DNA of 63,516 nt, counting the filler, from Squatina squatina (taxonomy: Eukaryota): NCBI GenBank assembly GCA_031763465.1. It is 4 parts of 4 records of this genome, joined end to end, with 100 filler letters (N's around TTAATTAATTAA, not from the genome) between each part and the next. Parts side by side here need not be neighbours in the genome. Positions count along the whole stretch, not along the records: positions 1 to 15,889 come from JARFOE010000073.1; 3 more parts are not named here. The stretch is one strand, 5' to 3'. The translations under genes were made by a program, and so were the position numbers. Of the stretch, positions 1 through 31,847 are shown piece by piece. Within the stretch, counting starts at the first letter, position 1. Each line of letters starts with the position of its first letter. The notes below the pieces were generated by a model. The model did no database searches. It was given only the letters and a program-made list of their open reading frames with translations, and was not told the origin of the DNA.

Positions 1-970
1 TAATTTCTGTCTGTTGAACTTGGCAAGTTGACTGCACCCGTTACATTGTATGGTAGTAGTAATTCCTATCATGTACATCAGAATCATGTTTCTAAGTTGA
101 AGTGAGACAGTGGTCGTAACTTTTGTTCCAGCCTCCTAGAGCCTCCTACGAGTCAAATTGTTCAATAATGAGTAGAAAGAAAAGAAGGTTTTATTTACAA
201 AGCATTTTTCTTTTTGTTGGGGGAGGGTGGTAGGAATTCATGGAACTGTACATGAATCATCTGTGCAATAATGACTTGCCATTGGTGGACAGTGTCTGAG
301 CTGCTCCATGTACTACTGCAGCACATGTGTGTGACATACTGACCTGGACAATTTTAATAAGCTTATCATCTTCGCCCTCCCCCCAAGTGTGTTGTGGTGT
401 CTTACAGTTTAGCAGTATTTCACTTTTTTTTGCTATCACGCACTAAATGTCTTAGACGTTTTTTAGGATTTGCTACTCACAGGTAGTCACAAAGAAACTT
501 CACAAATAATAAACCCAGTTGACCAAAAAAAAAGGTGTCATTTTTGTACACACGGCTTTACGCTACCCATTCTTTTCACTGTGATCCACGTTTCGTAACT
601 GTTTTTTCTTGGTATTTGTTAGAAACTGGTTGAAACTTGTATGGCTGGCAGTAGTGGAACCTGCTCCCTCCATTGGCAGAAGTAGATTTCTTTCTGTCTC
701 TGGTGATTAGCCATACAGCATACTCTGTTCTCAGCACTGTAAACAGTCCCTATATGATATGGAGAAGCAATATCACTGTATGAAACTCACATGATGTATT
801 ATTCACTAGCACCCTAGGTGTGATAATTGAAGTAAATATCTTTTATACAAACACAGCACTGGCCTGCATTGTCTTTATTTATGCATAAGCCCTTGAAGCA
901 AACATTTACTTTGTGATGTTACAAAGAGGCTAAATGGTCATGTGTTATTTCTGCACTATAAAGTAAAATG
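1..970 (+). other. 3'UTR-like AT-rich unique sequence, possibly the end of the CUX1 homeodomain-isoform 3'UTR
   Basis: No ORF, T-runs, TGTACA motifs and AATAAA near 508. It lies upstream of the CASP terminal exon, where the CUX1 p200 last exon sits in mammals (inference). Confidence 0.3.
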
Positions 971-1995
971 ATTTTTTTTCCTCAAACTCCTTTATTTGCC
1001 TCAATGAATATCCTTCTTTTCCTGTTAAAGGTAATAACAGCATTCACTCTGAAAAGCGTGAACCCAGCATGTAATGTTTTTAGCTTCGCCCTCACCGCGC
1101 TGGTGTCCGGGTCCGATTATCTGGGTCCAAGCTGACAAACTAGGAATCAATTTGTTTCACATATTTATGTCTCAACTAACCAGTGGCAGATGCTCGGTTG
1201 TTCTCTCCCACAGAAATGGCAGGAGATTCACATTGCCCAGCCTGATGGAGGTTTTCTGTGTCATAGCCCAGGTAAGCAACTCCACCCTGCTTATACCTTT
1301 TAGGTCAATTCTCAGTAGCTGCAAATATCCAGCTTTAGTTAACTTGTGGTTGNNNNNNNNNNNNNNNNNNNNNNNNNNNNNNNNNNNNNNNNNNNNNNNN
1401 NNNNNNNNNNNNNNNNNNNNNNNNNNNNNNNNNNNNNNNNNNNNNNNNNNNNACATCAATAGAACAACGTTCCTAGTCTGTCCTTCATTTCAATTACTCT
1501 TAGAAAAAATAATCAATGCATAATCATCTATCATAGCATGCACATACTGTAGATGCTTAATACTGCAGAGCTAAATAGTCAAATAAAGCAAAAACTGCCA
1601 CAGCACCATAGCATGCGCGAAGAAAATCTGTGCCTGACACACCCTTCAAGGGCTTGTATTGAGAACACTGCATGGTGATCAAGGTTGTAAAATCGACTAC
1701 TGCAGCAAACAGTTACTGCATCAGCAAGAGTGCAAATGATCAATAATACACTCCCATGATAGTTACTGTGTGCTGTGCCAGAACTACAAAAGATGCAGCC
1801 AATGCACAAAAAAAAACTGCAGCAATCAAGTGAGATTTGATCTTTCCTTCGATCATCTCAGCACACCGAATAGAATTATCTAACAGTCTTTGCTATCTGC
1901 ATTTCTAGCTTTGACCTTGAAAGCTAAAAATCATCACTACTTTCCTGCTGCATAAATTCAGGATAAATAGTAATATCTATGCAGCTAATTTTAAT

Positions 1996-3629
1996 AACTT
2001 GCATTTATGTAGCACCTTTAATGTAGTAAAAGAGGTAGGTTTTAGGGAGCATCTTAAAAGGAGAAAAGAGGTAGAAAGGTTTAGAGGGGGAATTCCAAAG
2101 CTTAGGGTCTAGGCAACTGAAGGCACAGTCGCTAATAGTGGAGCGCTGAAAATCGGGGATGTGCAAGAGGCTAGATTTGGAGGAGGTTACACAGATAGGG
2201 CTGGACAAAGCCATGAAGGATTTGAAAATAAGTATTAGCATTTTAAAATCAGGGCGTTGCCAAATCGGGAGCCAATTTCAATCAGAGAGCACAGGGGTGG
2301 AGGGTAAACGGGACTTGGTGCGAGTTAGGACACAGGCAGCAGAGTTTTGGATGAGCTCAAGTTTAAGTAGGGTAGAAGTTGGGAGACCAGTCAGGAGAAT
2401 GTTGGAACGGTCAACTCTGGAGGTAACAAAAGCATGGATGAGGGTTTCAGCAGCAGATGAGATGAGGCAGGGGTGGAACCAGGCAATCTTATAGAGGTGG
2501 AAGAAGGCAGTCTTGGTGATGGAAAGGATATGGAGTCTAATACTCATCTCGGGGTCAAATACGACACTAAGGGTGTGAGCAGTCTGGTTCCGCCTCAGAT
2601 AGTGGCCAGGGAGAGGGATGGAATCAGTGGCTGTGGAATGAAGTTTGTTGTAGGGACTGAAGACAATAGCTCCAGTCTTTCCAATATTTTGTTGAAAGAA
2701 AGTTTGCTCATCCAATACTGGATGCCGGACAAGCAGTGTGACAAATCAAAGATAGTGGAGGAGTCAAGAGAGGTGGTGGTGAGGTAGAGCTGGGTATAAT
2801 CAGCGTACATACGGAAGCTGCTGTGTTTTCGGATGATATCACTGAGGGGCAGCATGTAAGTGAGAAATAGGGGGGGACCAAGGATAGATCCTTGGGATGT
2901 ACCAGAGAAAATGGTGCAGGAGCAGGAGGAGAAGCCATTGTAGGTGATTCTCTGGCAATGACTGGATAGATAATAGAACTAGGTGAGGGCAGTCCAGCTG
3001 GATGATGGAGGGAAAGGTGTTGGAGGAGGGTGGTGTGGTCAACCGTGTCAAAAGCTACGGACAGGTCGAGAAGGTTGAGGAGGCATAGTTTACCACGGTC
3101 ACATTTAATGGTGACTTTGATAAGAGTTGTTTCAGTACTGTGGCAGGGGCAGAAACCTGATTGGAGGGATTCAAATGTGGACTTGTGGGAAAGGTGGACA
3201 GGAATTTGTGAGGTGATAACACGTTCAAGGACTTTGGAGAGAAAAGAGAGGTTGGAGATGAGTTTGCAAGGACAGAGGGGTCAAGCCTGTTTTTTTGAGG
3301 AGAGAGGTGATGACGGCAGATTTTGAAGGGAGAGCAAAAGTACCTAAGGAAAGGGAACCATTAACAGTATTAGCTAACATGGGGACCAAGAAGGGAAGTT
3401 GGATGTTGAGTAGTTTGGTGGGAATAGGGTTGAGGGAGCAGGAGGTGGGCCTCGTGGACAAGATGACCTCGAAGGGGGCATGAGCTGAGATAGGAGAGAA
3501 ACTAGAGAAAGATGCAAAATTCAGAACTAGGACAGGGAGGGAACTTTAGTGGAAGTTTGGCCTGGTGGGCTGGGGAAGGGAAGGGAAGTGGCTGAGGCAG
3601 CTGATCGGATAGTCTCAATCTTAGTGACA
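1996..3629 (-). mobile_element. L2-clade LINE, degenerate RT and 3' tail
   Basis: Minus-strand ORF fragments MYADYTQLYL (YADDTQLY motif), AAETLIHAFVTSRVD..N.LL.GLP and SCSLNPIPTKLL, with frameshifts; 3' tail ...ATAAATGCAAGTT. Confidence 0.9.
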
Positions 3630-3904
3630 NNNNNNNNNNNNNNNNNNNNNNNNNNNNNNNNNNNNNNNNNNNNNNNNNNNNNNNNNNNNNNNNNNNNNNN
3701 NNNNNNNNNNNNNNNNNNNNNNNNNNNNNCGAGCATTCATGTCTAGAACTATGAGGTATCCCCCCCTCCCCCCATTGACTAATAATATGTTTATTGTGTT
3801 ATGGAGCTGGTTCTAATGGCCATGTTTTAAAGCACTGAGGAGTAATACATCGAGGACATGTTTTACAGAAATGTGAACAGTCCTTCAGTCAGCACCACCA
3901 GCAA

Positions 3905-4082
3905 GACGGATTGTCTGTGCGTTATCTCATTGCTGTTTGTGAGATTCTGCTGTGTGCAAATTTGCTGCCATGTTTCCTACATTGCGACAGTGACTACACT
4001 TCAAAAGTACTTCATTGGCTGTAAAGAACTTTGCGACGTTCTAAGGTCGTGAAAAGCGCCCTAGAAATGCAATTCTTTCTTT
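3905..4082 (+). mobile_element. Deu-domain SINE (SacSINE1-like) 3' part
   Basis: TTGCTGTTTGTGAGA..CTGTGTGCAAATTTGCTGCCATGTTTCCTACATT..GACTACACTTCAAAAGTAC; several other copies in the window. Confidence 0.75.
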
Positions 4083-4424
4083 ATGCATTTCAGCAATGTG
4101 CTGCTTTTTAAAACACCTTTGGTTTGTCTCTTTCTGCTATCTTAACCACTTCTCTCAAATCAGGTTCTGGCCAGTGATATTGACGATATTGGTTACGCTG
4201 GTCTATAAAAATAAATGGGCTTATATATTATTATAGGTAAAATAAATGATGTGTATTTGTACTTTTAGATAATCTTCTTCATCTTGATATGTTGTGGTCA
4301 GTTTCTGCGGGTGATGTTTAGGAGTTGCCACATTTGCACTTGTGGTCTCAGTCAGTGTTGTACATTCTGCGTAGTGTTGCTAATAGTTTTGGTGCTAGTG
4401 ATCTGATTTGTTTCATTTCTCTAG

Positions 4425-4485
4425 GTATTCTGACCATCTGCACAAGTTCCATGAGAACGGTGACGCAAGGGATATGTGGCAGTGA
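4425..4485 (+). CDS. CUX1: CUX1 CASP isoform, terminal coding exon (K)YSDHLHKFHENGDARDMWQ*
   Basis: Acceptor ttcatttctctAG at 4423-4424 and stop TGA at 4483-4485. The peptide matches the recalled CASP C-terminus KFADHLHKFHENDNGAAAGDLWQ and lies upstream of SH2B2, as in mammals. Confidence 0.88.
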
Positions 4486-4880
4486 AGCGGAGGATTGTGG
4501 GNNNNNNNNNNNNNNNNNNNNNNNNNNNNNNNNNNNNNNNNNNNNNNNNNNNNNNNNNNNNNNNNNNNNNNNNNNNNNNNNNNNNNNNNNNNNNNNNNNN
4601 NAGGAGAACAACCCCAGCTTCTCCAACCTAACCTCGTAGCTAAAATCCCTCATCCCTGGAGCCACTCACCAAGCCTACTTTCAGTCAGAGTGCAATTACT
4701 ACTGTTATTTTTAATCAGAATATACCATCTCACACTGTTGCTCCTCTGATTTTTAGATAGCTGCACTGTTACTTGGTTCGAAGGATGAACTTACATTTAT
4801 ATCCTCGATGTCCTCAAGCACCATTCCGCCAATGAAGCCTGGTCACTGTTGTAATCTAGGCACAAATGTAATAACCTACA

Positions 4881-5207
4881 ACCCCAGTGCTTGTTGACCC
4901 ACATTGGCTCCTGGTCCATCAATGCCTCAATTTTAAAATTCCATCCTTGCTTTTAAATAGCTCCATAGCCATGCCCTGACCCCCTATCTCTGTAACCTCA
5001 GCCGGCCATACAACTCTCGAAGAACTCTGCATTCCTCCAACTCGGGCCTCTGGTGCATCCCCACTAGCATCTTTGACCAGTCGTCAGTCACCTGCCCGAC
5101 TGTCTCTTTCTCTGGCTCGGTGTCAATATTTGGCTGATTATGCTCTTGTGAAACGCCTTGGGCCTTTTTACTATATTAATGGTGCTATATAAATGCAAGT
5201 TTTTGTT
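4881..5207 (+). mobile_element. L2 LINE 3' fragment
   Basis: CCCAGTGCTTGTTGACCCACATTGGCTCC...TTTAAAATT..., ending in the TATATAAATGCAAGTT tail; related to the element at 1996-3629. Confidence 0.7.
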
Positions 5208-6110
5208 TCTTTCTTGCAAGCAGCACTGAAACATGTTCGAAGCAGGTTCATTACTGACAGTCGATAGCCACCAGGGCTTTACACAGTGGTAATGTAATGT
5301 CAAATGTAATTAAATTATCAAGCTACGCCTGAACAGTCCTATCACTGGACCCAGTGTGCTGCATCACAGACACTCATATCTCCACCAAGAAATTAGGTCA
5401 CACTTTCAACTAATTGGAAATGTGTTTTTAATTGTTGAGACAGAAGACCATTTTTAATCATTTCAATAGTTTTCTGGCATTGAATTAATTTAATTTCTAA
5501 AATAACATTATTGAGCTGACTGCTGAGGTAACCCGCACAAACTAATTATCCACCTCATTCACCAAACCAGTTTATGCTTGAAAAGCTTAAGAAATCATTG
5601 CTGTAAAATTAATATAGTTTGCGTTTTCACCTCATTAATTGTGAATCACATTTATTGAACACAGTTGGATGAGTCACAATATTTTAAGTAGGCCAGCCTT
5701 AAAATGAAAAGTCTTGTCTTTCTATGTATAAAACTCATTATTTGAGCACAACACCAAACAAAACTTGAGCAAAGGAAATTCAGTCGGGTGAATGGCAGAT
5801 GCCATTATTGTTCTGACCACATCATTCTGTTACAATATCCAAGTAATGCCATGTAATTAGGGTTATTTCTCTAGGTAAGTGTTATTTAAAAGCTGTAATA
5901 TTTAATTTTAAAGGTCACGTTCAGAACAAAGACTTGATAAGACACAGACAATTTTATTTACTGCATGCTAGGACAGGCTGGGCATTTGAACATGTGTTGC
6001 TTAGTTACTANNNNNNNNNNNNNNNNNNNNNNNNNNNNNNNNNNNNNNNNNNNNNNNNNNNNNNNNNNNNNNNNNNNNNNNNNNNNNNNNNNNNNNNNNN
6101 NNNNNNNNNN

Positions 6111-6272
6111 GATTCAATAGTAACTTTCAAAAGGGAATTGGATAAATACTGAACAGGAAAGATTTTCAGGGCTCTGGAAAAGAGCGGGGGATTGAGACTA
6201 ATTGGATAGCTCAACCAAAGAGCACGATTGGGCGAATGGCTTCTTTTGTGCTGTATCATTCTATGATTCTAT
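6111..6272 (+). mobile_element. CR1 LINE 3' end
   Basis: DSIVTFKRELDKY, a GGGCGAATGGC hairpin and a (TTCTATGA)n tail. Confidence 0.8.
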
Positions 6273-6438
6273 GGCGCAGGATCTTGGTTCTGAAGTGCAT
6301 TTGTTGCTTAATATTTCTAGATGAACAAGGTGTTGGTTTGTATGTTGGGTGTTCATTGTAATACTGTCAAGCAGTAGATATAACAAAGCCTTTTTCCCCC
6401 TTCTTGTACAGCTTAATTGGGGCTTCAGTGAAATAGCC

Positions 6439-7287
6439 ATGAATGGTGATTCTGAAAGTCAGGATTCTTTACAACAAGTTCCAGACTGGAAGGAGTTTTG
6501 TGAGGTGCAGGCACGAGCTGCTGCAACCCAATTCGCCCAGAAATTTCGGATATTTGTAAGTGAAAATCCCCATTACGAGTGTCCAGGAATAGAGACCAAT
6601 TTCTCGCAACATTTTGCCTCCCATTTTGTCGAGTACTTTGCTTTGGAGGTGAACAGGCCGTATCTCTCAGATTCCCCGATCAAATATAACATTGCTCCAT
6701 TCTCGGACATTCAGAATTGTCAGCTGCCTTATGGTAAAGAAGTTCTCCAGAGAAAGGAGAATTCAGATTCTCTTGAGAGCATAGACAACACGCTGAACTC
6801 AAGCAGGTACCTGAGACAGGTGCAGGTCCGGGACATGTCTAATTTTGGCCATTCCCGGAGCTCGGAGGACGTTTCTGTCAGTGCTTCTGCCAGACCAAAG
6901 TTTAAGAAAGGGTTTTCTCTGCGGAACATGAGCGTGTGCATGGTGGATGGGATGAAAGAGATCTTGCAGTGGAGGTCCTCGGCAGAACCTCTGCTGGATG
7001 CTGGGCAGAGCAGGAGGCCTGAGGGAGACGACTCCTCAGGGAGTAAACTCGAAAATGATGTCCGCGACAAATGGAGCCACAAATTGGAACGTTTACGTCT
7101 AACAAGGTCATCATCTGCTAAAGTGGAACTGCTGGACATCCAAAGGGAAGGCACGTTGAGGTACATGGTGGCTGATGACACTAACTGCGTGAGCAGCACA
7201 CAATGGCAGAAGTGTCGACTGTTGCTGCGGAAAGCTGTGAGACTGGAAGGAGAACGATTCCTCTTGGAATTTTATGTACCACCCAAG
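6439..7287 (+). CDS. SH2B2: SH2B adaptor protein 2 (APS), first coding exon: Phe-zipper dimerisation domain and start of PH domain
   Basis: MNG..VPDWKEFCE..AAATQFAQKF, KGFSLRNMS and WQKCRLLLRKAV..ERFLLEFYVPPK. Acceptor at 6410-6411, ATG at 6439, donor GTAAGA at 7288. Confidence 0.93.
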
Positions 7288-7349
7288 GTAAGATCAGAAA
7301 CCATTCCTATCAGGACCCCCGCAGTGCAAGAACTAGAAGGAGATTGTTG

Positions 7350-7594
7350 CCTCGTGCCAAGGGTACAGTACAGCTTTACCCGAATTACACCAGGGATTAA
7401 AGGGTAAAATTCTGAGGACAGGTTGCATTAACTGGGCTTGTATTCCTTTGAGTTTCGAAGGTTGAGGGCTGATCTGATCAAGCTGTTTAAAATGATAAAG
7501 GGGTTCGATGCGGTATATTTCCTCTGGTGGAGGAATCCGGAACGAGGAGCACAATCTTAAAATTAGAGCCAGACCCTTCCAGAAATCTGGAACT
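7350..7594 (+). mobile_element. CR1 LINE RT C-terminal fragment
   Basis: LGLYSFEFRRLRADLIKLFKMIKG-like and HNLKIRARPF sequence. Confidence 0.75.
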
Positions 7595-8378
7595 NNNNNN
7601 NNNNNNNNNNNNNNNNNNNNNNNNNNNNNNNNNNNNNNNNNNNNNNNNNNNNNNNNNNNNNNNNNNNNNNNNNNNNNNNNNNNNNNNNNNNNNNATAACC
7701 TCAAAGTACATTGCCGCCAGTTGTGCAAGTGCAAAGTCTAGACGATAGACTATACCTTAAAGTCTCATTGTGAGCTTTGCAATAACAATGGAAGATACAA
7801 GACTGATAAAGACTACTGCAGTCCACCTGTGTAGTCCCAGTGTCCAAGAAATATCATATCGTCGAGTTACAGAATAACAAAGCAGGTCGTATTTTGTTGC
7901 AATTTATGAGGGTTGACCCATTTGAAATGATTCCTTTCACCNNNNNNNNNNAAAATTGTAACGCGAAATGTAGCATGTTTTTATGCTAATTCCCCTTAAA
8001 CCTTTTTTTGTGTAAAGTGCGTCATCTGGTAACTCCGTGCTATTTTGCGCTATCATTTTAATGCTGGAATAAATGTTACAAATTGATGACAGCTTCCAGC
8101 TGCAGCTTTGATCATTGCCGAGCCCCGTGGTGTAGAAAGCTGATACAAGGTCACGCCTGAGCCTTGAGCTGTGCTGGATATGAACCTCCATTAAGCATTC
8201 TGCAGGTCTGCTGACTAATTAACACAGAGCAGAAAGAAAGAGTTGCAGAACCACAGACCGACTTGTCCTCAGAAACATTATCGAATGTAGTGAAAATATT
8301 GTAACCGTATGCGCGTGATTATATTTTGATGTAAAATCCTAGACTACTGGAAAGACTCTGTGATTTGTTGTGTGCCAG

Positions 8379-8470
8379 GTGGAGAATGGTGCAGAGTACA
8401 TCCTGGAGACGATTGACTCCTTACAGAAACACTCGTGGGTGGCTGACATTCAGGATTGCATAGATCCAGG
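8379..8470 (+). CDS. SH2B2: SH2B2 exon, PH domain C-terminal part
   Basis: VENGAEYILETIDSLQKHSWVADIQDCIDP(G), flanked by AG and GTAAG. Confidence 0.92.
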
Positions 8471-8949
8471 GTAAGAGCAACGTTACTGCCAGTTGCAGGA
8501 CTAAGGGCATTCTCTGCTTAGATATTTATACATACAGAAGGGTTCAGTGGGAATATTTTACATAAAAATCGATAATGCTGCAGAGTGTCGTGAGGCCAGG
8601 AGGGCCACTGGGTCGATGGAGTGGGCTCAGTGGATTATTCTCATCTGCAAGGGTGCACAATTATACAAGAGTAAGCCTGTATCAATGTTCCTCTGGTTAA
8701 AGTCTGCCATACATACGGAACTCACCACAAGTAGGAATGGGAATACCCCAACTTTGATTGCTTGGGCCGGCCCACGTGATCCCAGGGACACTCGCGAACC
8801 ACCTGGCCTTTGTGAGCCTTTACGCAGGCCTATGCCTGCAGGCCCAGGAGCGCAAGAGTCCAAAGATACAGAGGCACCAGGTAGGTGCATGCTTTTATTG
8901 TGGACCAAAGGCATTCGCCCGTGGAAAGTCTCCAATCGCAATTTTAAGT

Positions 8950-9304
8950 CCAATATTCCTGGTTACCAACTATTCAGCGATGATAAAGAAGGAAAAAACA
9001 GGAAGGAGTGTGGCAGTATATTGATTAAGGATAATGTTGCAATTCCAAATAGAAAGAATACACTAGATGGTTCTTGGACTGAATCGATTTGGCTTGAATT
9101 GAGAAACACAGGGAAAGCTGTTACATTGTTGGTCGTTCTTTTTATAGAGCTCCAAACTCTGAGTAGATGAGCAAATTTGTTGGCAAATTTCAAAGGAGTG
9201 TAACAAAAATATAGTAATATTAGGAAACTTTAATTACCCTAATACAGACTGGGAAAAAAATAATGCTAAGCGTAGGGAAGGAGAGGAATTTCTGATACGT
9301 GTAC
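8950..9304 (+). mobile_element. CR1 LINE APE-endonuclease fragment
   Basis: NIPGYQLF..., ESIWLELRN and a GNFNYPNTDW-like motif. Confidence 0.75.
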
Positions 9305-9489
9305 NNNNNNNNNNNNNNNNNNNNNNNNNNNNNNNNNNNNNNNNNNNNNNNNNNNNNNNNNNNNNNNNNNNNNNNNNNNNNNNNNNNNNNNNNNNNNNNN
9401 NNNNGAGCAGGCTCGAAGGGCCGAATGGCCTACTCCTGCTCCTATTTTCTATGTTTTTATGGAACAAAGGGATATTCAGAACACAAGGA

Positions 9490-9845
9490 CATTCGGAACA
9501 TAGGGACATTCGGAAAAGGAGACCAGTCAGCCCCTCGAGTCTGCTCCACCATTTAATCAGATCATGGCTGATTTCCACCCAGCTCCATTTATCCGCCTTT
9601 TCTCCACATCCTTTGATACCCTTCCCCAATAAAAACCGATCTATCTCAGGCTTGAAAGCTCAATTGACCCCCAGACTCCACAGCTTTTAGGGAGAGCAAG
9701 TTATTGATTCCGCAACCCTTTGTGTGAAAGATTGCTTCCTGATATCACTCCTGAATGGCCGAGCTCTAATTTTAAGATTATGTTCTCTTGTTCTGGATTC
9801 CCCACCAGAGGAAATAGTTTCTCTGTATCTACCCTATCAAATGTA
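9490..9845 (-). mobile_element. CR1 LINE 3' fragment
   Basis: Reverse complement of the CR1 RT tail and 3'UTR (KGIKGCGEKADKW). Confidence 0.8.
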
Positions 9846-9974
9846 GATTTTAAGCTGAGGGTGAATAGTAAATCCTGGGAATCAGTTGAAAGTGCGTGAG
9901 AAGCATGTCTTAAGGTTGACTATGTACTAGGGCACATCCAACTCACTAACTTTGTGTTATCTTCACTGCCTCAG

Positions 9975-10142
9975 GTGTTGCCCAAGTCCCAGATAAGATG
10001 TGTGCTAATCCTGATTCTGCTGTCACTGTCTCACACGTCAGACCGAAGGAACTCCAAGTGCCGGAGCCTCCCGCACATGTTCCTCTGGAAAACTTCCTGC
10101 AGACTTTGCATTCAGAAACCCCAAGCACCACGTCCTCTGCAG
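9975..10142 (+). CDS. SH2B2: SH2B2 exon, PH-SH2 linker
   Basis: ..HVPLENFLQTL.. matches the recalled SH2B2 HVPLETFLQTL; 168-bp phase 1-1 exon with AG/GT. Confidence 0.85.
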
Positions 10143-10851
10143 GTAATATAGCGACATCCAAGCCTGAGCTTAACTGCTGCCGGGAAACCATCGCACGACT
10201 GGTGACACTTATTGCACCAAGAATGATTGAGTTAATTTGGGGGATTCTGGAACTCTCACTGAAAGCAAGCTAAAAGCTCGATGATTGGTTAAACTGACTT
10301 CATCATCTATATTTTCTCTTTGCATGTTGAGACTGGATTTTAGTGGGCTTTAGGTGACTGCTGGGGCAGTGCCAGTCACAACTCCTTCTTTCCCTTAACT
10401 TGTGTTGCCTCCTTTAAATTCTGAGGGAATTATTTTGGGGAAGGGATGAATCGAGGTGCTAAGTGGATGCTGTGCTCCTCAGACATGCCTGTTTAAACGT
10501 CTGGTTTTAACCCTCAGTTTTGGGGCAAATTGCTGATCACCATGATTTAAATGTGTCTGGAGGCGCCAAGCCGGAGACTGCACATTTANNNNNNNNNNNN
10601 NNNNNNNNNNNNNNNNNNNNNNNNNNNNNNNNNNNNNNNNNNNNNNNNNNNNNNNNNNNNNNNNNNNNNNNNNNNNNNNNNNNNNNNNTAACGCGCCGTT
10701 ATTTTGCCAACCAATTCTGGCCCATTAAAATAAAATGACCTTGCACCAAGCTAAGCTCATATCCCCAGAGGCAAGCGAGGTGTCCAGAGAGCAACAGTCC
10801 TGTGATACTGCACCGGGAGACATACCATAGGCCCCACTGAGAACATCCTGC

Positions 10852-10962
10852 GAATAAACAGGAACTCCACATAGTTGCGTAGTGAGTAACGCTTACCTTG
10901 CTGAATAAACAGGAACTCAATGCAGTTAGACTACCTTGTTGGATAAACAGGAACTCCACACA
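10852..10962 (+). repeat. Three dispersed copies of G(A/G)ATAAACAGGAACTC
   Basis: Copies start at 10852, 10903 and 10941; copies 2 and 3 share an upstream TACCTTG. Confidence 0.7.
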
Positions 10963-11658
10963 ATAGCTGAGCTGTATTGCCAAATCGTACCAACAGATAT
11001 TGTCATCCTAAAGCTGTGCAGTCCCCTGGTCAGGCTTGTATGCAATTCAGGAAAGAAATATCCAAAGTCTAGAAGCAGTACAGAGAGGTGTCAGAAGACA
11101 GGGTTCAGAGGAAAGATTAGAAAGAATCCGACTCTTCAGCTTGGCGAACTGAGTGAGGGGCAGGGGGGACCTTGTGGAGGTCTGCAAGCTGTGAAATGGA
11201 TTTGAACATGTTAATCTGGAGCACCATTTCAAATGCTATCATGATTGCAGGTCAAGGGGACATAGGTACAAAGTGGTAAAGACAAGTCAAGGATCAATAT
11301 CAGGAAAGATATCTTCACAGAGAGTGGCCAATACCTGGAGTGATCTTCCAGGCTAGGATAATCGGTGAAAAACCCTGNNNNNNNNNNATCATTCAGATGC
11401 AGTTAGGTACAATGATAAATTTTGATGGAGAGTTAACGCCCTTCCTCGTCTGTACTTGGTGACCTTCACAAAGAGAGAGATGGAGATAGTTAAAATAGAA
11501 TTTCATGACAGGTGACAGAAAATTTGAAAGCCTTTGGAGAGGCTTGAAGAGCATTTCTTTTTTTCATCCTACAATCTACTGGTCTCCGTGTTTTATAATT
11601 CCTAGTAATTCTTTATGCAAGAAATGTATCTTCCAACAAATGTATTTATCCCTTACAG

Positions 11659-11969
11659 AGATGAGTACTTCACACAATGCCACACCTCCAGCTGCCCCTA
11701 CACAGCCCAACTGCAGAAGTGATACCCATCAATCACAGCACTACTTTGCCAACTCTGTAGGTGACAGCCTTCAATCTGCTGCCCAAGTTGAAGGGACATC
11801 TTCCACCATCCATCCGGCACCCCACAGATCAGAGGCCGTTGTCGCCGTTCGTAACAGTAACTCCGAGCGTTTGCTGCAACCTCCAGCTGCGACCTCAGAG
11901 GACTACCATGACAGCGATGGATCGAGGAACCGAACACGAGCTGTGGAAAATCAATATTCTTTCTACTAA
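11659..11969 (+). CDS. SH2B2: SH2B2 terminal coding exon
   Basis: Ends RTRAVENQYSFY*, the SH2B2 C-terminal Cbl-binding tyrosine motif; acceptor ccttacAG at 11657-11658. Confidence 0.92.
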
Positions 11970-13034
11970 CACAAGGAAATGCAATGAAGCAAGGCTTGGA
12001 GAATGCTGATATTTAAGTGTGGATATTTGGCAAGGTGCATCTGTTCAGCAAAAAGGAAGCAAGTTATGCATTATGGTAAAGAGACAGTATCCCTGTCATT
12101 TGACTACTAGTGATGAAAGTGAAAACTACTACACACAGACTGAGTGTTTAATATGAATTATAGGGTGTTTGATGCCACAGCTGGTTCAAGGCCAAGTGGC
12201 AAAGACACACTTTCCTGATTAAATGTGTTCTTTCTAGATATTTGTATCTGCACTTTTCACTATTACTGTAAAGAAAGAGTTTCAATGGACTGTGTACAGA
12301 CAATGAGTGAGGCTGAAATGTTTTACTCAATATCTTCTCTGTAGTGTGATATTTTTAGTGAGCCTGTTGGTGATATGACCAGATAGTTTGTATGACATTC
12401 CTTCGTCCAGTTAACTTTAGTGGTGGTGCTGACTGATTTTAAAGTGAGCAGTAATTTCTAGGCCTGTGTGTGATTTAAACTGTTGGACTATGCTACTGAG
12501 GTCAGATGAGAGATTAACCTGTTTAAGTGTGAAGGAGTATTTCAATATCAATCTAAATTCATATACCAGTGTCTCAGAAGCTCCAGTATTTGGAGTTCTC
12601 AGCTTCCAACCATAGGGTAATGGGTCCATGCAGCCCCTCGTTCAGCACCGCACTTGGCACACACCCCAGGATGTTTGATGGTCAATGCGTTCCATCTCAG
12701 TGGAGGAGGAGACCATTGTCCAACTCAGCTCTCTCACCCCGCTTAATGAGGGAGTGACGTTGGTAATGGTCGTGAAGAACTGCACCATCCAGTGTGGGAT
12801 TCTGGATTCTGGTCTTCCAGAGTGAAAGAGTAACTAGGAGAGAAAAGTGAGGTCAAAAAAAGACAGATTAACTTTGGAGACAGTTCACTGCAATTGTCGT
12901 AAATTAAGAAATATTTCATAATTGTGACAATTTGTACTTTATAATACTGATGTACAATTTTGAAAATTTTATGAAAAATAATGAAGATTTTTACTCTCTC
13001 GAAGGTCCCATAAGACATGTTTGTAATCCCTGCC

Positions 13035-13040
13035 AATAAA
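13035..13040 (+). terminator. Candidate SH2B2 polyadenylation signal
   Basis: AATAAA about 1.07 kb after the stop, following UTR-like sequence. Confidence 0.45.
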
Positions 13041-13320
13041 CAAATACCGTCTGTGTGGAGCAGTCGGAAGTTAGAACGTGATTAGTATTGTACAAAAGAG
13101 CTTCTTTTTTATTTTGTCTTTCTTAATATTAACAAGCAAAGTTAAAAACTGTGTCTAGAAAGTAACAACGAGACCCTGTAAATGACACAGACTTCAGTGC
13201 AGGATAATAAGAAGAGATCTNNNNNNNNNNNNNNNNNNNNNNNNNNNNNNNNNNNNNNNNNNNNNNNNNNNNNNNNNNNNNNNNNNNNNNNNNNNNNNNN
13301 NNNNNNNNNNNNNNNNNNNN

Positions 13321-13821
13321 TTTCCTAATTTTTGCTGTACCGTTCTGTGATTCGTGTACAAAAACAATCAGGCCCCTGTGCATATCAACATTTCTCAATC
13401 TCTCAGCATGTAAACAATATTCTGCTTTAATATTTTCCTACCAAAGTGGATAGCTTCACATTTCCCTACATTATATTCCATCTGCCATGTTCTTGCAACT
13501 CACATAGCCTGTCTATATCCCCCTGAAGCCTCTTTGCATCTTCCTCACAACTAACATTCCCACCTAATTTTGTATCATCAGCAAACTTGGATACATTACC
13601 ATTCCAAATCATTGGTATAGATTGCAAATAAGACCATAAGAAATAGGAACAGGAGTAGGCCATTCGGCCCCTCGAGTCTGCTCTGCCATTCAATAAGATC
13701 ATGGCTGATCCAACTTTCTTCAAGTCCACTTTCCCACCCTATCCACATAACCCTTGATTCCGTTACTGATTAAAAATCTATCTATCTCAGCTTTTAATAT
13801 ATTCAAGGTTTCAGCCTCCAC
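13321..13821 (-). mobile_element. CR1 LINE fragments (RT plus a 3' end)
   Basis: SKFADDTKLGG..CEEDAKRLQGDIDRL; 3'UTR GGCCGAATGGCCTACTCCTG. Confidence 0.85.
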
Positions 13822-13921
13822 NNNNNNNNNNNNNNNNNNNNNNNNNNNNNNNNNNNNNNNNNNNNNNNNNNNNNNNNNNNNNNNNNNNNNNNNNNNNNNN
13901 NNNNNNNNNNNNNNNNNNNNN

Positions 13922-14362
13922 GGCCTGCTTGCATCTCGCGGGCGGAATTCACCCGCGGGGGGCGGCCACAGTGCAGGGCGGTTGCAGGGACATTAAAACC
14001 TGTCGCTGCAACGGCCCCCTTAAAGGGGAGGACCTGTGCGCCTGCAGCCGCCATCTTTATTTTCTGTCCTACTTCATTGACGGCCCTCGGCCGGATCAGG
14101 CCACCATTCCCTTGCCTGGCGTCCCAGGCTGGTGGCCCAGTCACCGGCGTCCCTGGTAGCCCAGGATGCTGTCAGGATGGCCGACGGCCCTCCCCTTTAA
14201 GGAGGCCTGGCCGGGCAGTGCTGCTGACGTCGCCACGCAACGACGCTGACACCGCGGTTTTGAGTGCCACACCAGCGGTGTAAGAAGGCAGCCGCCCCAG
14301 TGCAAAAAGTGCTGGCTCCCACCCCGTGAGTGCCACCAAGGGTTGCAAATAATTTCAGCCCC
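13922..14362. mobile_element. GC-rich non-autonomous DNA element (Harbinger-like MITE), one end visible
   Basis: GC/CpG-rich tract ending AATTTCAGCCCC followed by TTA (TWA target site typical of PIF/Harbinger); the other end is in a gap. Confidence 0.5.
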
Positions 14363-14488
14363 TTACATTTACTAGGAAGGTTCTCTTATTCTTCTTTGAG
14401 GGTTGGATTAGGTATAAAGCATCAGCGGCTGAGATTGCATTGTGCTGTTCTTGTCAAACTCTTGATGCACCTGTTAATTTGTTCACAG

Positions 14489-14687
14489 GTAGCAGTACTG
14501 CTTGTCTGGTAATTCTGGACAGACAGAAACGCTGTTTGTACACCGCGAACTTGGGAGACTCGGGCTTTCTCATAGTACGTGATGGGAGGATCATACACAG
14601 ATCAGATGAGCAACAGCATTACTTCAACACTCCCTTTCAGCTGGCAATTGTACCACCTGAGGCCCAAGGTTCAATCCTCAATGACAG
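14489..14687 (+). CDS. PTC7-family (PP2C) protein phosphatase exon, PPTC7-like
   Basis: (G)[40 protein letters not shown]; 199 bp with AG/GT. Confidence 0.92.
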
Positions 14688-14792
14688 GTAGGNNNNNNNN
14701 NNNNNNNNNNNNNNNNNNNNNNNNNNNNNNNNNNNNNNNNNNNNNNNNNNNNNNNNNNNNNNNNNNNNNNNNNNNNNNNNNNNNNNNNNNNN

Positions 14793-15370
14793 TAAGTTTT
14801 CAATTGACCCAGTCTCAACAGCTTTTTGGGAGAGTGTGTTCCAGATTTCTGCTACCCTTTGTGTGAAGAAGTAATTCCTCACATCACCCCTGAATGGCTT
14901 AGCTCTAATTTTAAGGTTCTGCTCCCTGTTTCCCCACCAGAGGAAATAGGATAGCTGGAGAGAAAGTATCAGCTGCTTTAATCATCTTAAACACCTCAAT
15001 TAGATCACCCCTTAATCTTCTGTACTCCAGGGGATACAAGCCTAATCTACACCAAGCCTAATTTAGGCCTGGTAAATGATGACAGGTTATTTAGGCTCCT
15101 GCTCCTAATTCTTGTGTTTTTGTGTATCATTCTGGTGAATGTGCGCTGCACCATCTCCAAGGCCAATATATCCTTCCTGAGGTGCGGTGCCCAGGACTGA
15201 ACACCGTACTCCAGATGCTGCCGAGCTAGAGCTTTTTTGCAACTGTCGCCCTTTGTATTCCAGCCCTCTTGAGATAAAGGCCAACATTCCATTAGCCTTT
15301 GTCGTTGTTTTGCACCTGCCCACTAGCTTTTAGTGATTTCTGTGCTTGGACTCCTTCATTTTTCTGCTCC
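14793..15370 (-). mobile_element. CR1 LINE RT fragments
   Basis: KANGMLAFISRGLEYK, HLEYGVQSWAPHLRKDILALE and RNYFFTQRVAEIWNTL. Confidence 0.88.
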
Positions 15371-15410
15371 CCCACCATGTTAATGAGTAATTTATTTTTG
15401 TATTCTACAG

Positions 15411-15534
15411 CCCTGAAACAGCAGAAGGCTCCACGTTCAATGTAGAAGTGGGTGATATCATTCTTACAGCGACAGATGGGCTCTTTGACAATGTGCCAGA
15501 CTACATGATCTTGCAGCAGTTAAGACAACTGAAG
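15411..15534 (+). CDS. PPTC7-like next exon
   Basis: (S)[41 protein letters not shown] with the PP2C DGLFDN motif; phase compatible with the previous exon; not in the ORF track. Confidence 0.92.
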
Positions 15535-15798
15535 GTACTGTGTGTGTAGCCATTGGAGTTTACAGCTCTCCAATAGTTTGTGCTAACTTGTCAATTCTGC
15601 CTGCGCCGCCACATTTGGGTGCCCTGTTGTGTCTCAAACTCGGGGTTATGTTAGGACTGACATTCCCTTAAACCTGCACTGAGGGGGACGCTGATTTCGC
15701 AGGGAAGTGAGGCTGGCTAAATGTTGCTGCATTCGTAGCAATCCCATTACTGCTGCATGTAGTAACGTTCTCACCGTTAAAACCATCGTCTGAACTTT

Positions 15799-15889
15799 CA
15801 CATCTATTGGGTGACTGTGTGTGAGAGAGTGGGAGACCACATCTATCGGGTGGCTGTGTATGGGAAAGTGGGAGACCACATCTATCAGG
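15799..15889. repeat. 39-bp minisatellite truncated by the scaffold end
   Basis: Units CACATCTAT.GGGTG.CTGTGT..G.GA.AGTGGGAGAC start at 15799, 15838 and 15877. Confidence 0.85.
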
Positions 15890-16768: not shown

Positions 16769-19056
16769 TTGGGACAGTGGACAACGGCTAATCAAGACAC
16801 ATCCACTGAGGACAGAGAACTGTGCTGGTGGCTGCCCCAAAGGAGCAGAGNNNNNNNNCCCCGAGTCCCCTGTGATTGGCTCCAGGCCTCCTGCGACCCT
16901 GTACTGCATAAGCAGTATAGAGAATGAAAGTAAGTGAATGGGCTAGATTGGACATAATCGTATTGTTGCCGTATGTGCTGTAAAATACAGTAATCACACA
17001 CAGTTGAAGTATTTTAATGCAGACAAAGCAAAAAAAAAAATGCTAGACGGAATAAAATTGCTGTTCTTGGTTTTATTTTATTGTCATCATGTAGAATACT
17101 TGTTTTGTTACAAGGAAATTTATTGGTGGGAAATGTATTTTGTAACGTGAATCCGCGACCTTGCCACGCTTGAGTAAAGATTGAATTACTGATTTGGATA
17201 ATGTGCACAGTGACACCTGGCAAGAATAATGGATTGAGCGGAAACTGTACCAAGGGGCTCTGTGCTTGAATTGACTTATTTTTATAAAATGGAAACTACC
17301 ATAACTCCCTGTAAATATTTAAGATGGCAGTTTGCAACCTATTTTCGCCATTGTCGGTGGAATAAATTTACAGCTCTGCAAGTAAACACTGTCTGGAAAG
17401 TTGATTAGATTGTTATCCATTCTGATGGCACAAAGGGAATTGGACCAAGTCTGTCGCAGGCAGGTGTGTGTGCTGGCGTGATAGTTGGGAGTGTAAAAAT
17501 CCTTTTGCAAAGAGCATTGAGCAGGTTATCCTGGCAGTTTGGTCACTCGCCATCTCTTGATTGTCCAATGAAAGCCTCTGTCTATATTTGTGGAATGCAG
17601 ATGTGTTTTGATGTGTTTTCTGTGGTAAGCTGTACTTTAATCTCATGATTCATGATGGCATGGGCCAGAAGACAAATGTCCAGCAGCTAGTTGATCCAGT
17701 ATGAGTCGCCATCCTGACTGCTCATGCACATCCTTACTACTGTTACCCCTGCATCCTCTTTCAGTGAAAGGCAGGGAACAGTGCTGGGGACTTTGGGATG
17801 TTTTACCTTTTCCTTGCAGTGTGAAATTGCTATGATTTCAATTTCATAATTCAATTATGGTGGAAGCAGCAATATGGAGACAGGACACAAAAGAAATGGA
17901 GGGAAAGGACTGAGCAAGTGATGAAGGTGGCCACGTGGGACTGAGATGTCTTTGCCAGGAGAAAAATGCTTCTCTTTGTCCTTTCAACAAGTTCTGTTGC
18001 TTTGACAACAAAATTGAGAAAAGAATGCAGATATGACTCCCTCATTGCATGAGCAATCAGCCTTTAACTCGCTCGCCTTTGTTGCACTAGTGTTACAGTA
18101 CTTGCTGTCCTCCACAAGAGGTCATGTGCAGCATGTTGCTGAATTTGCGAGCACATTCAGTGGCAGAAATCCGGTACTGAATAGTTAAAGATAAAAGTCA
18201 AGTAAAATTTGAATTTTGTTTCTAATTTAAGCTAATTTGCCTTCTAAAATCCCCTAAAATCATGGTACCTGTTGTAAAATTCCCAAATGACAGCAAAGCT
18301 ACTCAATTTCTGGGAATGCTTTGTTACTGTTGAACAGGGTAATAAAAATTAAAAAATCATAATCTTTTTATATAAAATACTGAAAGTTTTCCTCTACCAC
18401 CAACATTTCCTTCAGCTGGGACTCTTGTCTTCAAAAAAGATGTTTTCTGATTGGGTTAAAAGCAGTTCTGTATGACTGTGCAAGTTTGAACTGATTGTGT
18501 CAGTGGAGTGCCCAGATTAAAGAGCTGACTGTATCCTGTGGTGGTGTCTGGTCATCCTGGCATTTGAGCAGTTAACCTGTTGCTGCAGAAGTAAATAATT
18601 GTGTTTGTGATGCTGGAAAGTTACAGTGGTGTGTGTTGCAACCTAATAATAAGCCTGGTACAGGTGGGGAAGTGTGGTCATTGGTTAAGCTTCTAACTGT
18701 ACATACTGTAAGCATCTTTTATGCTGGGAGGCAGTGTTAGCTGTGAGGAGGATGCTAGGAGGCTGCAGGGTGACTTGGATAGGTTAGGTGAGTGGGCAAN
18801 NNNNNNNNNNNNNNNNNNNNNNNNNNNNNNNNNNNNNNNNNNNNNNNNNNNNNNNNNNNNNNNNNNNNNNNNNNNNNNNNNNNNNNNNNNNNNNNNNNNC
18901 AAAGCTGGTCAAGCATTAATCGAGTTGATCAGTTATCTGAACAGGGCTCTAAAACTGAACTGTACACATATATTGTACCAGTGTCAAAGAGGCGCCTGAA
19001 GTATAACTGTATGACTTCCCTCATGATGTTATCATAAGGTTTTGTTCTTGTTTTAG

Positions 19057-19325
19057 GAAGATTAAAAACGATGAAATCACCAAGATCCACATGAACCTCT
19101 GCGCTGCCTTACTTCTTCTAAATGTGAACTTCTTCACCAACGTATGGCTCAGTACGTTGAGAAATGACGGTCTCTGTAAGACCATTGCTGTGTTTCTGCA
19201 TTATTCATTGCTGTGCACTTTCACCTGGATGGGAATCGAAGCATTTCATCTGTACATGATGGTGATCAAAGTGTTCAACACCTATGTAAAATACTACATA
19301 CAAAAACTGGCTTTTATTGGTTGGG
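19057..19325 (+). CDS. Adhesion GPCR subfamily G exon (TM2-TM4), ADGRG3-like
   Basis: KIHMNLCAALLLLN..LCK.IAVFLHYSLLCTFTWMGIEAFHLY..IKVFNTY..KL..IGWG with AG/GTGAG. ADGRG1/3/5 are 16q-syntenic, like MBTPS1 and FA2H. Confidence 0.85.
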
Positions 19326-19589
19326 GTGAGTATAAAGTATTCTACTTTCACTTTTTGTTGCCAGATTTATTGACCCCATTTTGTGCTTTACGCATTGAAC
19401 ATTAGTTACCCCAATACAATATTTTTCAAAATACTATGCAGAGGTCAGATGCCCAATGGATATCTAAGTACAATTCCTAAAGATAATACTGTTATGAGGC
19501 CTACTTTTCTCCCATTTCTGTCACTGGCATCAGTTATAAGATTACAAACCATAGATAACTTGGTGACATGCGAGATGAATACTCAAATG

Positions 19590-26785: not shown

Positions 26786-27417
26786 TCAGCGGTTGAACTC
26801 CTCCTGTACAATCTGATTTTGGATGGCCCTTGCAGCATCCAGGGATGAATCCTCTGACAGTTCATCCTCCTCAAACGCTGGGGCCTGCAGCTCCCTTTCC
26901 TCGGGCAACAGTGGCTCCTCGTCATCTACACTGAATAGGTGGCCTTCCTGCAGTGCAAAATTGTGCAGCACACAGCATGCTATGACGATTCTCGCAACCC
27001 TTTGGGGTGTGTACTGCAGTGCTCCACTGGATCTGTCCAGGCAGCGAAACCTGCTTTTCAACAGTCCTATGGTCCTCTCCACCACTGCTCTCGTTGCTGC
27101 CTGGGCCTGGTTGTATGCATACTCTGCCGGCATTATCGGTTGACTCAGTGGAGGCATGAGCCATGTCTGCAGCGCGTACGCCTGGTCTCCGACGAGCCAC
27201 CCTTGGACATGGTTGTCTTCGTGAAAGAGGTCTGGAAGTGTTGAGTGCTGTACAATTACAGCGTCGTGACAGCTGCCAGCGTGCTTGGCATTTACATACA
27301 AGATCTTCTGGTGGGCATCGCAGACAATCTGAACATTTAGCGAATGGAACCCCTTCCTGTTCACAAATATAAGCGGTTGTTCTGCTGGCGCCTTCAGTGC
27401 TACGTGTGTGCCACCTA
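26786..27417 (-). mobile_element. PIF/Harbinger (HARBI1-like) DDE transposase, C-terminal part
   Basis: GTHVALKAP..FVNRKGFHSLNVQIVCD, GSCHD, WLVGDQAY, YNQA..TRAVVERTIGLLKSRFRCLD and ACCVLHN; the 5' part is in a gap. Confidence 0.93.
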
Positions 27418-29979: not shown

Positions 29980-30242
29980 CGTTGAACATAGAACATACAG
30001 CACATAACAGGCCCTTCGGCCCACGATGTTGTGCCGAACCTTTGTCCCNNNNNNNNNNNNNNNNNNNNNNNNNNNNNNNNNNNNNNNNNNNNNNNNNNNN
30101 NNNNNNNNNNNNNNNNNNNNNNNNNNNNNNNNNNNNNNNNNNNNNNNNTGTTTAGGTGGTTGTTTCATGAATTCTCAACCTAAGCAAACCTGTCATGTCA
30201 ATACTTAAATGTATCCTCTCTCTCTCTCTCTCTCCTCTGCAG

Positions 30243-30495
30243 TCTCCATTTGATGGTTCACGTTTGGTCTTTCCGCCTGTTCCAGCGTCACTCGTTGTAG
30301 GGTTATTTTTTGCTGCTTTCCACTTGCTTGCTCCAGGAGCAGTCGGCAGGTCTATCTTTGTTGGAGGTCTATGTGGCTATGTTGTTTATGACATGATACA
30401 TTATTATCTACATTATGGCTCTCCAAAGAAAGGCAGCTACCTCTATGGACTTAAAGCATACCATGTTAAGCATCATTTTGAACACCAAAAATTAG
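30243..30495 (+). CDS. FA2H: Fatty acid 2-hydroxylase, penultimate exon
   Basis: [44 protein letters not shown] with His boxes; AG/GT. Confidence 0.96.
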
Positions 30496-31847
30496 GTACA
30501 TATAACTTGTTTCTGACATGTTGGTATTTTACTATTAATAACAGCAGAATTTACAAACTCTTGCTTTTTTCCCATTTGTGCCCAAGAGATGCGAGTAAAT
30601 TCCAAGCTGAGTTTGAGTATAAAAATTATTTCTAAACTGCATGCACAAGTTTGTGGCTATAATCTATATTTGTGTTTTCATGTAGTAAGGAGTTATGTAT
30701 TCTGAAGGGACAGTAGACTGTTCTATTGGTTCAAATAGGCATTATGAAGATACCGTCGGCACAAGTTGATAAGGAGCTGGGATTTCTCCTGCGTGTTCTC
30801 CCCAATATCTCCACCTCTTTTACTCCTCCGGTCTCTTGCTTCTCTCTGATCCAGACCGAGGTTTTTTTTGTTCCACCTTGTTCTTCGCTCTTCTGGTCCC
30901 TGATTTGACAATCTGGGCCGTTGATATTCTTCAGGGCTGTTGACCCAGTAATCCATTGTAACTCTCATGACAGACGGGTAGCACCCTAAAAACAAAACCA
31001 GTGGAGACCCCGCAACGTGTCTTGAGGCGGTGGGTGGGGGCAAAGGGGGCGAGGTCGGTGCGGGGTGGTNNNNNNNNATGTGCTTACCTAACCTTCCATG
31101 GCTTGATTTATAGGCAATGCAGAGCAGGCAATGCTGGCCTAAATTTAGAAGCAAGGGAACGAAGGGATAATCTTCAAACTGTTAATACTCCGTCAGGTTG
31201 CAAGCCACTTGTGCCTAGCAGAAGGTCCAATATAGCTGAGAAAAGATCTGAAGACAAATTGCTGAGGTATTCTCATCTTTTGGGGGGGTGAGGTGAATCT
31301 CATGCAGAAGGGGAGATACTGGGAGGATTTTTTTTGAGGGTGGGTAAGACTCCCAAAGACTGATCACCTGCACCTGCCTTTTCAAATATCTCATTAAATT
31401 ATCCTACTTTCCCTGGGGGCGATGGTTTATTTAGGAAAGCTTTCCAAGATGCTGAGAACTTGATGTGATTTCCCCTCAGTTCTTCATGTGTCAATCTGGA
31501 CAATGAATTTCTGCAGGTCATTTGGGGAATTGGGGTGGGTGAACATCATAGCCAAACCTGATCAGGTTGTGACTTATATTCTGCATGTGTATTTTTTTTG
31601 GGGTGGTCAATGGATGATTCGGGTGGGAATCCCAGCTTTCCCTTTACCAATCCAGAGAGAGTGTCTAATTGAAGTGCCCAGCTAAGATTAGTTGAGACTA
31701 GAGAATTAGACTGGAGCCCTCCAGCACACAAGACTCAATGCCATTCTGCATTGTGTATTTATATGTATTCTTCAAGTCTAATTGGGAATTTCTCAAATAT
31801 AACGCAACTTCTAACCTGCTGGCATTTATTTCTCCTCTCCCATTTAG

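What the first reader, a model, noticed from the sequence alone, without database searches (positions are those of the whole stretch)
14489..15534. Probable second PPTC7 gene (ohnolog) linked to CUX1-SH2B2
Two intact, in-phase exons keep the PP2C motifs NLGDSG and DGLFDN (seen) but differ from the recalled, very conserved PPTC7, for example [16 protein letters not shown] versus SPDAADSTSFDVQLGD. In human, the single PPTC7 lies near CUX2 and SH2B3 (12q24), whereas CUX1-SH2B2 (7q22) is the paralogous block and has no PPTC7 (established). This may therefore be a whole-genome-duplication paralog of the mitochondrial phosphatase and mitophagy regulator, kept in cartilaginous fish and lost in mammals (inference).
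Basis: partly seen in the sequence, partly recalled or inferred. Interest (0 to 1): 0.7.

Follow-up and report, generated by a model that had tools for sequence, protein, structure and literature searches.

The report
Second PPTC7 gene kept in sharks
This shark carries an intact second copy of the mitochondrial phosphatase gene PPTC7, also found in rays, a chimaera, coelacanth and lungfish, which likely arose in an early vertebrate genome doubling and was likely lost in ray-finned fish and land vertebrates.

Summary
Confirmed. Window 14489-14687 and 15411-15534 are exons 3 and 4 of an intact six-exon, 302-aa PPTC7 paralog (here 'PPTC7B'), joined by splicing in contigs of 4 of 4 runs laid. The genome also holds canonical PPTC7 on another scaffold with CUX, SH2B3, PP1, SERCA and ORAI genes; B lies with CUX1, SH2B2, Rabaptin, SERCA and ORAI, giving five paralog pairs. 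B forms a 100/100 clade of cartilaginous fish, coelacanth and lungfish and shares a chromosome-scale record with SH2B2 in 17 of 17 comparable species. No ray-finned or tetrapod B was among 302 proteins classified. Catalytic aspartates, the BNIP3/NIX-binding Y179/N181 and the predicted FBXL4 patch are kept. Cartilaginous-fish B has a more basic N-terminus and Trp for a nearly invariant Arg84. It is most likely a whole-genome-duplication copy (1R favoured, not settled) working as a mitochondrial PPM phosphatase. RefSeq already annotates it generically; 10 literature searches found no description as a separate paralog. A Pdx2-type retention pattern: moderate interest.

The parts
14489..14687 (+). 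PPTC7B coding exon 3 (199 nt): GSSTAC, NLGDSG, and the HYFN segment with the Y179/N181 equivalents
   Evidence: AG/GT ends; Pfam PP2C; covered by spliced contigs in 4 of 4 runs
14688..15410 (+). Intron 3 (GT..AG; 723 nt as assembled, with a 100-N gap and repeat fragments)
   Evidence: skipped as one GT..AG joint in contigs of X1, X5, X8, X13
15411..15534 (+). PPTC7B coding exon 4 (124 nt) with DGLFDN (metal-binding D223 equivalent)
6439..11969 (+). SH2B2 gene (first coding exon 6439-7287, further exons about 8379-8470, 9975-10142, 11659-11969; others not in the window); syntenic neighbour
   Evidence: Phe_ZIP; top homologs named SH2B2, 93% best; later exon ends read from the sequence
4425..4485 (+). 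Last exon of the CASP-type isoform of CUX1 (label recalled); syntenic neighbour
   Evidence: open exon ending in TGA; no Pfam hit by itself; CUT domain upstream on the same scaffold at C73 about 8.028 Mb

Best explanation
The two exons belong to an intact second PPTC7 gene, likely a whole-genome-duplication copy, that likely encodes an active manganese/magnesium-dependent mitochondrial protein phosphatase working much like canonical PPTC7. Shown: six exons with canonical splice sites give a stop-free 302-aa frame; the gene is spliced in related species; it forms its own clade (cartilaginous fish, coelacanth, lungfish); its scaffold and that of canonical PPTC7 share five paralog pairs; all tested catalytic and partner-binding residues are kept. 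[quoted passage not shown] It evolves about three times faster than the canonical copy, which fits a partly redundant or tissue-restricted second enzyme.
For: Exons 217/180/199/124/130/59 nt, 302 aa, 0 internal stops, 97% to Heptranchias, 82% to coelacanth, 72-73% to canonical. Spliced joint 14687>15411 in 4 of 4 runs, and one X8 contig runs through exons 2, 3 and 4. 12 of 14 listed exon 3-4 differences and 5 of 6 exon 2 differences are synonymous against 23% expected. Tree of 41 rows: B 100/100, canonical 87/89, all vertebrate rows 99/98 apart from tunicates and amphioxus. C73: CUT, SH2B2, PPTC7B, Rabaptin, SERCA, ORAI; C120: SH2B3, CUT, PP1, PPTC7, SERCA, ORAI. B and SH2B2 on records of the same length in 17 of 17 comparable species; A and B on different records in 7 of 7. 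D78, D158, D223, D290, Y179, N181, E125, Q128, K130 invariant in 8 A and 8 B rows; roles from bioRxiv 10.1101/2024.02.23.581814. Model pLDDT 83, best fold match the PTC7-family phosphatase PBCP 6AE9, E 2e-19.
Against: Exons 1, 2, 5, 6 lie on unplaced contigs and the scaffold has many gaps. RefSeq numbers of B and SH2B2 are within 11 in only 7 of 12 species, 27 in one, 176-1853 in four. B lies downstream of SH2B2, canonical PPTC7 upstream of CUX2, so one inversion is needed. Lamprey placement is unstable: with A in 745 of 1000 bootstraps, with B in 824 of 1000 on the domain alone; A+B as one clade was rejected at p-AU 0.037 but not at 0.144. Loss rests on database hits, not genome scans; gar, bichir and caecilians were not seen by name, nor a named canonical copy of lungfish or coelacanth (only 15 members per cluster listed). 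The X8 contig's piece upstream of exon 2 is not exon 1. No activity, localisation or binding was tested; the runs are only guessed to be RNA.
Confidence: 0.8

Rival explanations
1. Same origin, but the two copies have split PPTC7's two jobs: cartilaginous-fish B is imported efficiently and acts mainly as a matrix phosphatase with altered substrate choice, leaving BNIP3/NIX turnover to the canonical copy.
For: Net charge of the first 30 residues is +4 or +5 in 16 of 16 cartilaginous-fish B proteins against 0 to +2 in 86 canonical ones; canonical PPTC7 has a weak 13-14 aa presequence that sets its outer-membrane pool. Position 84 is Trp in 28 of 28 cartilaginous-fish B rows and Arg in 218 of 219 non-B rows with the motif.
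Against: The extra basic residues lie mostly after the reported cleavage site at residue 14; lungfish and coelacanth B have +1/+2 and Arg84; Y179, N181 and the E125-K130 patch are kept; the active plant enzyme PBCP has Ala at position 84.
Confidence: 0.2
2. B arose by a small segmental duplication or transposition in an early jawed vertebrate and landed beside SH2B2 by chance, not by genome doubling.
For: Its position relative to the CUX-SH2B block differs from the canonical copy's; the tree dates it only to the vertebrate or jawed-vertebrate stem.
Against: Five paralog pairs on the two scaffolds; PPTC7(+) is followed by SERCA(-) on both, 68 kb and 120 kb away; intron phases match where both copies are visible.
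Confidence: 0.06
3. Assembly artefact, retrocopy or decaying pseudogene of the single PPTC7.
For: Fragmented assembly (1.15 million contigs); faster evolution, 7.8% against 2.3% mean distance among seven cartilaginous fish.
Against: Six intact exons with introns, spliced contigs, mostly synonymous differences, full-length orthologs from skates to lungfish.
Confidence: 0.01

Closest known systems
Vertebrate PPTC7 (PTC7 subfamily of PPM/PP2C phosphatases; yeast Ptc7, plant PBCP)
   Same: Fold, metal-binding aspartates, Y179/N181, E125-K130 patch, short N-terminal helix, intron phases where comparable
   Different: Separate locus and clade, 72-75% identical, 37 alignment columns with no residue shared between 8 A and 8 B rows, about 3.4 times faster evolution; in cartilaginous fish Trp84 and a more basic N-terminus
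Pdx2 (Mulley and Holland 2010, PMC2944030; abstract read)
   Same: [quoted passage not shown]
   Different: A housekeeping mitochondrial enzyme, not a homeobox gene; also seen in lungfish
Teleost pptc7a/pptc7b (teleost-specific duplicates; names seen in the listing, origin recalled)
   Same: Two PPTC7 genes in one vertebrate genome
   Different: All teleost rows fall in the canonical clade, so they are not orthologs of B

Membership tests
PPM/PP2C phosphatase, PTC7 subfamily | PP2C fold | tested here: met
   Model of Heterodontus B, pLDDT 83; best match PBCP 6AE9, E 2e-19, then SpoIIE and tPphA; Pfam PP2C and SpoIIE over cut-off
PPM/PP2C phosphatase, PTC7 subfamily | Metal-binding aspartates D78, D158, D223, D290 (human numbering) | tested here: met
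   Invariant in 8 of 8 B rows; present in this genome's exons
PPM/PP2C phosphatase, PTC7 subfamily | Mn/Mg-dependent phosphatase activity | not testable with these tools
   Needs an assay
Vertebrate PPTC7 (mitophagy adaptor) | Cleavable N-terminal mitochondrial presequence | tested here: inconclusive
   First 16 residues align with the canonical presequence, 2-3 basic and no acidic residues, similar hydrophobic moment; helix 4-16 at pLDDT about 50; no dedicated predictor was available
Vertebrate PPTC7 (mitophagy adaptor) | BNIP3/NIX-binding residues Y179, N181 and predicted FBXL4 patch E125-K130 | tested here: met
   Kept in 8 of 8 B rows, with L126M; SRPE-bearing BNIP3-family exons exist in this genome
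Vertebrate PPTC7 (mitophagy adaptor) | Physical binding to BNIP3/NIX and FBXL4 | not tested
   The complex predictor was not available
Canonical PPTC7 ortholog | Groups with tetrapod PPTC7 and lies with CUX2/SH2B3 | tested here: not met
   Separate clade; the C120 gene is the ortholog
Ohnolog (vertebrate whole-genome duplicate) | Duplication after the split from invertebrate chordates and before the cartilaginous/bony split | tested here: met
   Both clades hold cartilaginous and bony fish; vertebrate rows 99/98 apart from tunicates and amphioxus
Ohnolog (vertebrate whole-genome duplicate) | Copies on different chromosomes within paralogous blocks | tested here: met
   Five pairs on C73 and C120; different records in 7 of 7 species
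Ohnolog (vertebrate whole-genome duplicate) | Assignment to 1R or 2R | tested here: inconclusive
   A+B without lamprey in 1 and 53 of 1000 bootstraps; p-AU 0.037 and 0.144

The most novel reading that the evidence does not exclude
Cartilaginous fish have divided the two jobs that the single, essential mammalian PPTC7 does at once: canonical PPTC7 is the weakly imported BNIP3/NIX-FBXL4 adaptor, and PPTC7B, with a more basic presequence and Trp84 beside the metal site, is a dedicated matrix phosphatase. It would be a natural separation-of-function allele dating from the first vertebrate genome doubling.
Probability: 0.2. Interest if true: 0.65.

Novelty: new member of a known kind. Interest (0 to 1): 0.4.

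Why it matters
PPTC7 is treated as a single-copy gene whose loss kills newborn mice and causes a human disease (abstract starts of PMC10575892 and PMC12934916). How its matrix phosphatase role relates to its outer-membrane adaptor role, and what sets its dual targeting, is called open in a 2024 review (PMC11555697, passages). A second vertebrate copy kept for over 400 million years offers a ready natural variant for rescue and import tests, and warns that shark, coelacanth and lungfish 'PTC7 homolog' entries mix two genes. Retention of an ohnolog in these lineages is itself a known pattern (Pdx2), so the evolutionary surprise is modest.

Tried and rejected
Complex prediction of B with a BNIP3-family peptide was not available; nothing was folded. 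The protein Atlas could not read the Rabaptin exon; Pfam named it. A genome search with Pfam SpoIIE found nothing. No RNA holder was listed on record (runs are guessed RNA); X13 and X9 gave no cover on exon 2. Genome searches with the SERCA and Rabaptin exons returned only themselves; the C120 SERCA was found by motif scan of fetched DNA, 252 of 470 kb of which read N. The supplement of the 2026 ohnolog database (PMC13450315) and those of PMC9974502 had no hit for PPTC7 or the neighbours; the online database itself could not be seen and may list this pair. No text naming the 1R/2R relation of the two blocks was found. No earlier finding of this scan matched. The 50%-cluster search added two B fragments of cartilaginous-fish type among 140 new proteins and no new lineage. 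A third PPTC7 locus was not seen in this genome (10 matches, two genes). A proper dN/dS could not be computed for lack of ortholog DNA.

Full report
Observation. The first stretch of the pack (1-15889) equals G000:C73:8065804-8081692; its 100-N runs are gaps of the scaffold. Two exons, 14489-14687 and 15411-15534, have AG/GT ends, are in phase and carry NLGDSG and DGLFDN. SH2B2 and a CASP-type CUX1 last exon (label recalled; CUT domain upstream) precede them on the same strand.

The gene is whole. A search of the genome with a full-length shark homolog gave 10 matches that fall into two genes. Six belong to the window gene: exons of 217, 180, 199, 124, 130 and 59 nt, four of them on unplaced contigs (C1001849, C969982, C287505, C494338). 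They give 302 aa without a stop, 97% identical to Heptranchias, 95% to Pristiophorus, 82% to coelacanth, 80% to lungfish and 72-73% to canonical PPTC7. Contigs of 4 of 4 runs laid (four organisms, four studies, guessed RNA) skip exactly the intron 14688-15410. One 4665-nt contig of X8 runs through exons 2, 3 and 4, tying the unplaced exon 2 to the window; its piece upstream of exon 2 is not exon 1, so another 5' exon may exist. Of 14 listed differences in exons 3-4, 12 are synonymous, against 23% expected (binomial p about 1e-6; 18 further rows of the table were not shown), and 5 of 6 in exon 2.

A canonical copy exists. The other four matches are 95-100% like shark canonical PPTC7; two lie on C120 at 4.735-4.740 Mb. 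C120 carries SH2B3-like (4.506 Mb, -), CUT (4.55-4.57, -), PP1 (4.69, +), PPTC7 (+), SERCA (4.86-4.89, -) and ORAI (5.07), the order I recall for human 12q24. C73 carries CUT (8.03 Mb), SH2B2, the window gene, Rabaptin (8.105), an F-box exon, SERCA (8.149, -) and ORAI (11.05). That is five paralog pairs; one inversion of the CUX-SH2B block reconciles the orders. From recall, human 16p11.2 (SH2B1, ATP2A1, RABEP2) is a third copy of the block.

The link is not a scaffolding error. B and SH2B2 lie on records of identical length in 17 of 17 species where both had a length (15 cartilaginous fish, coelacanth, lungfish); species without both values (Leucoraja, Amblyraja, Pristiophorus, Callorhinchus, C. 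plagiosum) were left out. RefSeq numbers of the two genes are 1-11 apart in 7 of 12 species including lungfish, 27 in one and 176-1853 in four (numbering follows position only loosely, own knowledge; coelacanth left out as its numbers come from different releases). A and B are on different records in 7 of 7 unambiguous species.

Phylogeny. In a 41-row tree B is one clade (100/100) of sharks, rays, chimaera, coelacanth and lungfish; canonical rows form another (87/89); all vertebrate rows stand apart from tunicates and amphioxus (99/98). With two profiles, 37 of 302 retrieved proteins were B-type, all named ones cartilaginous fish, coelacanth or lungfish, none from sturgeon, paddlefish, teleosts, amphibians, reptiles, birds or mammals. 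These 302 are the best 120 of 929 and of 3670 hits plus listed cluster members, so loss is inferred. Lamprey joined A in 745 of 1000 bootstraps in one set and B in 824 of 1000 in a domain-only set without tunicates and P0145; A+B without lamprey got 1 and 53 of 1000, p-AU 0.037 and 0.144. This leans to the first duplication, which preceded the lamprey split (Simakov 2020, PMC7269912, passages), but single gene trees can mislead here (PMC13450315, section 7).

Mechanism. Human numbering was set from a mammalian row by D78 and checks at Y179, D223, D290. Nguyen-Dien et al. (10.1101/2024.02.23.581814; passages and section 6) report D78/D223/D290 as active-site residues, Y179/N181 as needed for BNIP3/NIX binding and E125-K130 as the predicted FBXL4 contact. 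All are kept in 8 of 8 B rows, bar L126M. The model has the PP2C fold, nearest PBCP. Canonical PPTC7 has a weak presequence cut at residue 13-14 that sets an outer-membrane pool (PMC11239977 passages; 10.64898/2026.10.16.759620 part 1 of 3; PMC11555697 passages). B keeps an aligned basic, acid-free first 16 residues. I therefore infer a mitochondrial phosphatase able to act in the matrix and, as precursor, on BNIP3/NIX. Nothing functional was tested.

Differences. Among seven cartilaginous fish the catalytic core of B differs by 7.8% on average and of A by 2.3%, B higher in 21 of 21 pairs, which are not independent. Position 84, just after the D78 motif, is Trp in 28 of 28 cartilaginous-fish B rows, Arg in the 4 lobe-finned B rows and in 218 of 219 non-B rows with the motif; more distant eukaryotes vary there, so catalysis should not need it. 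The first 30 residues have net charge +4/+5 in 16 of 16 cartilaginous-fish B, +1/+2 in lobe-finned B, and 0 to +2 in 86 canonical proteins. These are the grounds for the division-of-labour rival.

Novelty. RefSeq annotates B in many species as 'protein phosphatase PTC7 homolog'. Ten searches of the paper library (listings and abstract starts only unless named above) showed no paper describing a second vertebrate PPTC7 outside teleosts; subscription papers and online ohnolog databases were not searched. The retention pattern matches Pdx2 (PMC2944030, abstract). Verdict: a real, apparently undescribed ohnolog; new member of a known kind; interest 0.4.

Noticed in passing
G000:C189:8104034-8104129, C189:1042183-1042284, C219:11632693-11632785, C1:23660565-23660717 (L040-L043): Three different exons with the BNIP3/NIX SRPE motif plus a transmembrane exon on a fourth place: this shark has at least three BNIP3-family genes, more than the two of mammals.
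   Followed up: partly
P0145 (unnamed protein, 317 aa): A long-branch PPTC7 that falls with the vertebrate rows in 812 of 1000 bootstraps but in neither A, B nor the lamprey cluster; it may be a further jawless-fish paralog.
   Followed up: partly
L027:442 (upstream of exon 2) in run X8; P0188, P0191: A transcript-like contig has a piece other than exon 1 upstream of exon 2, and two B proteins begin at the exon 2 border: a presequence-less isoform or incomplete models.
   Followed up: no
G000:C73:8104768-8150301 (L013, L025, L026): Rabaptin, F-box and SERCA exons follow PPTC7B, so SH2B-ATP2A-RABEP microsynteny (recalled for human 16p11.2) is kept here, whereas in human SH2B2 and ATP2A3/RABEP1 are on different chromosomes (recalled).
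   Followed up: partly
window 53080-54185 (+): Open, GC-rich frame with a BED zinc finger (E 3e-11) and a weak DUF659 hit: a hAT-derived ZBED-like gene or young transposase.
   Followed up: no
window 26789-27415 (-): 209-aa open frame that looks like a Harbinger-type DDE transposase (recalled likeness).
   Followed up: no
window 19007-19402 (+), 30171-30632 (+), 59093-59572 (-): Exons that look like an adhesion GPCR transmembrane segment, a fatty acid 2-hydroxylase and an LRRC4-type tail (labels recalled).
   Followed up: no
P0128, P0130: Proteins labelled Lampetra planeri look teleost-like canonical PPTC7 and unlike the lamprey cluster; possibly mislabelled records, left out of the trees.
   Followed up: no
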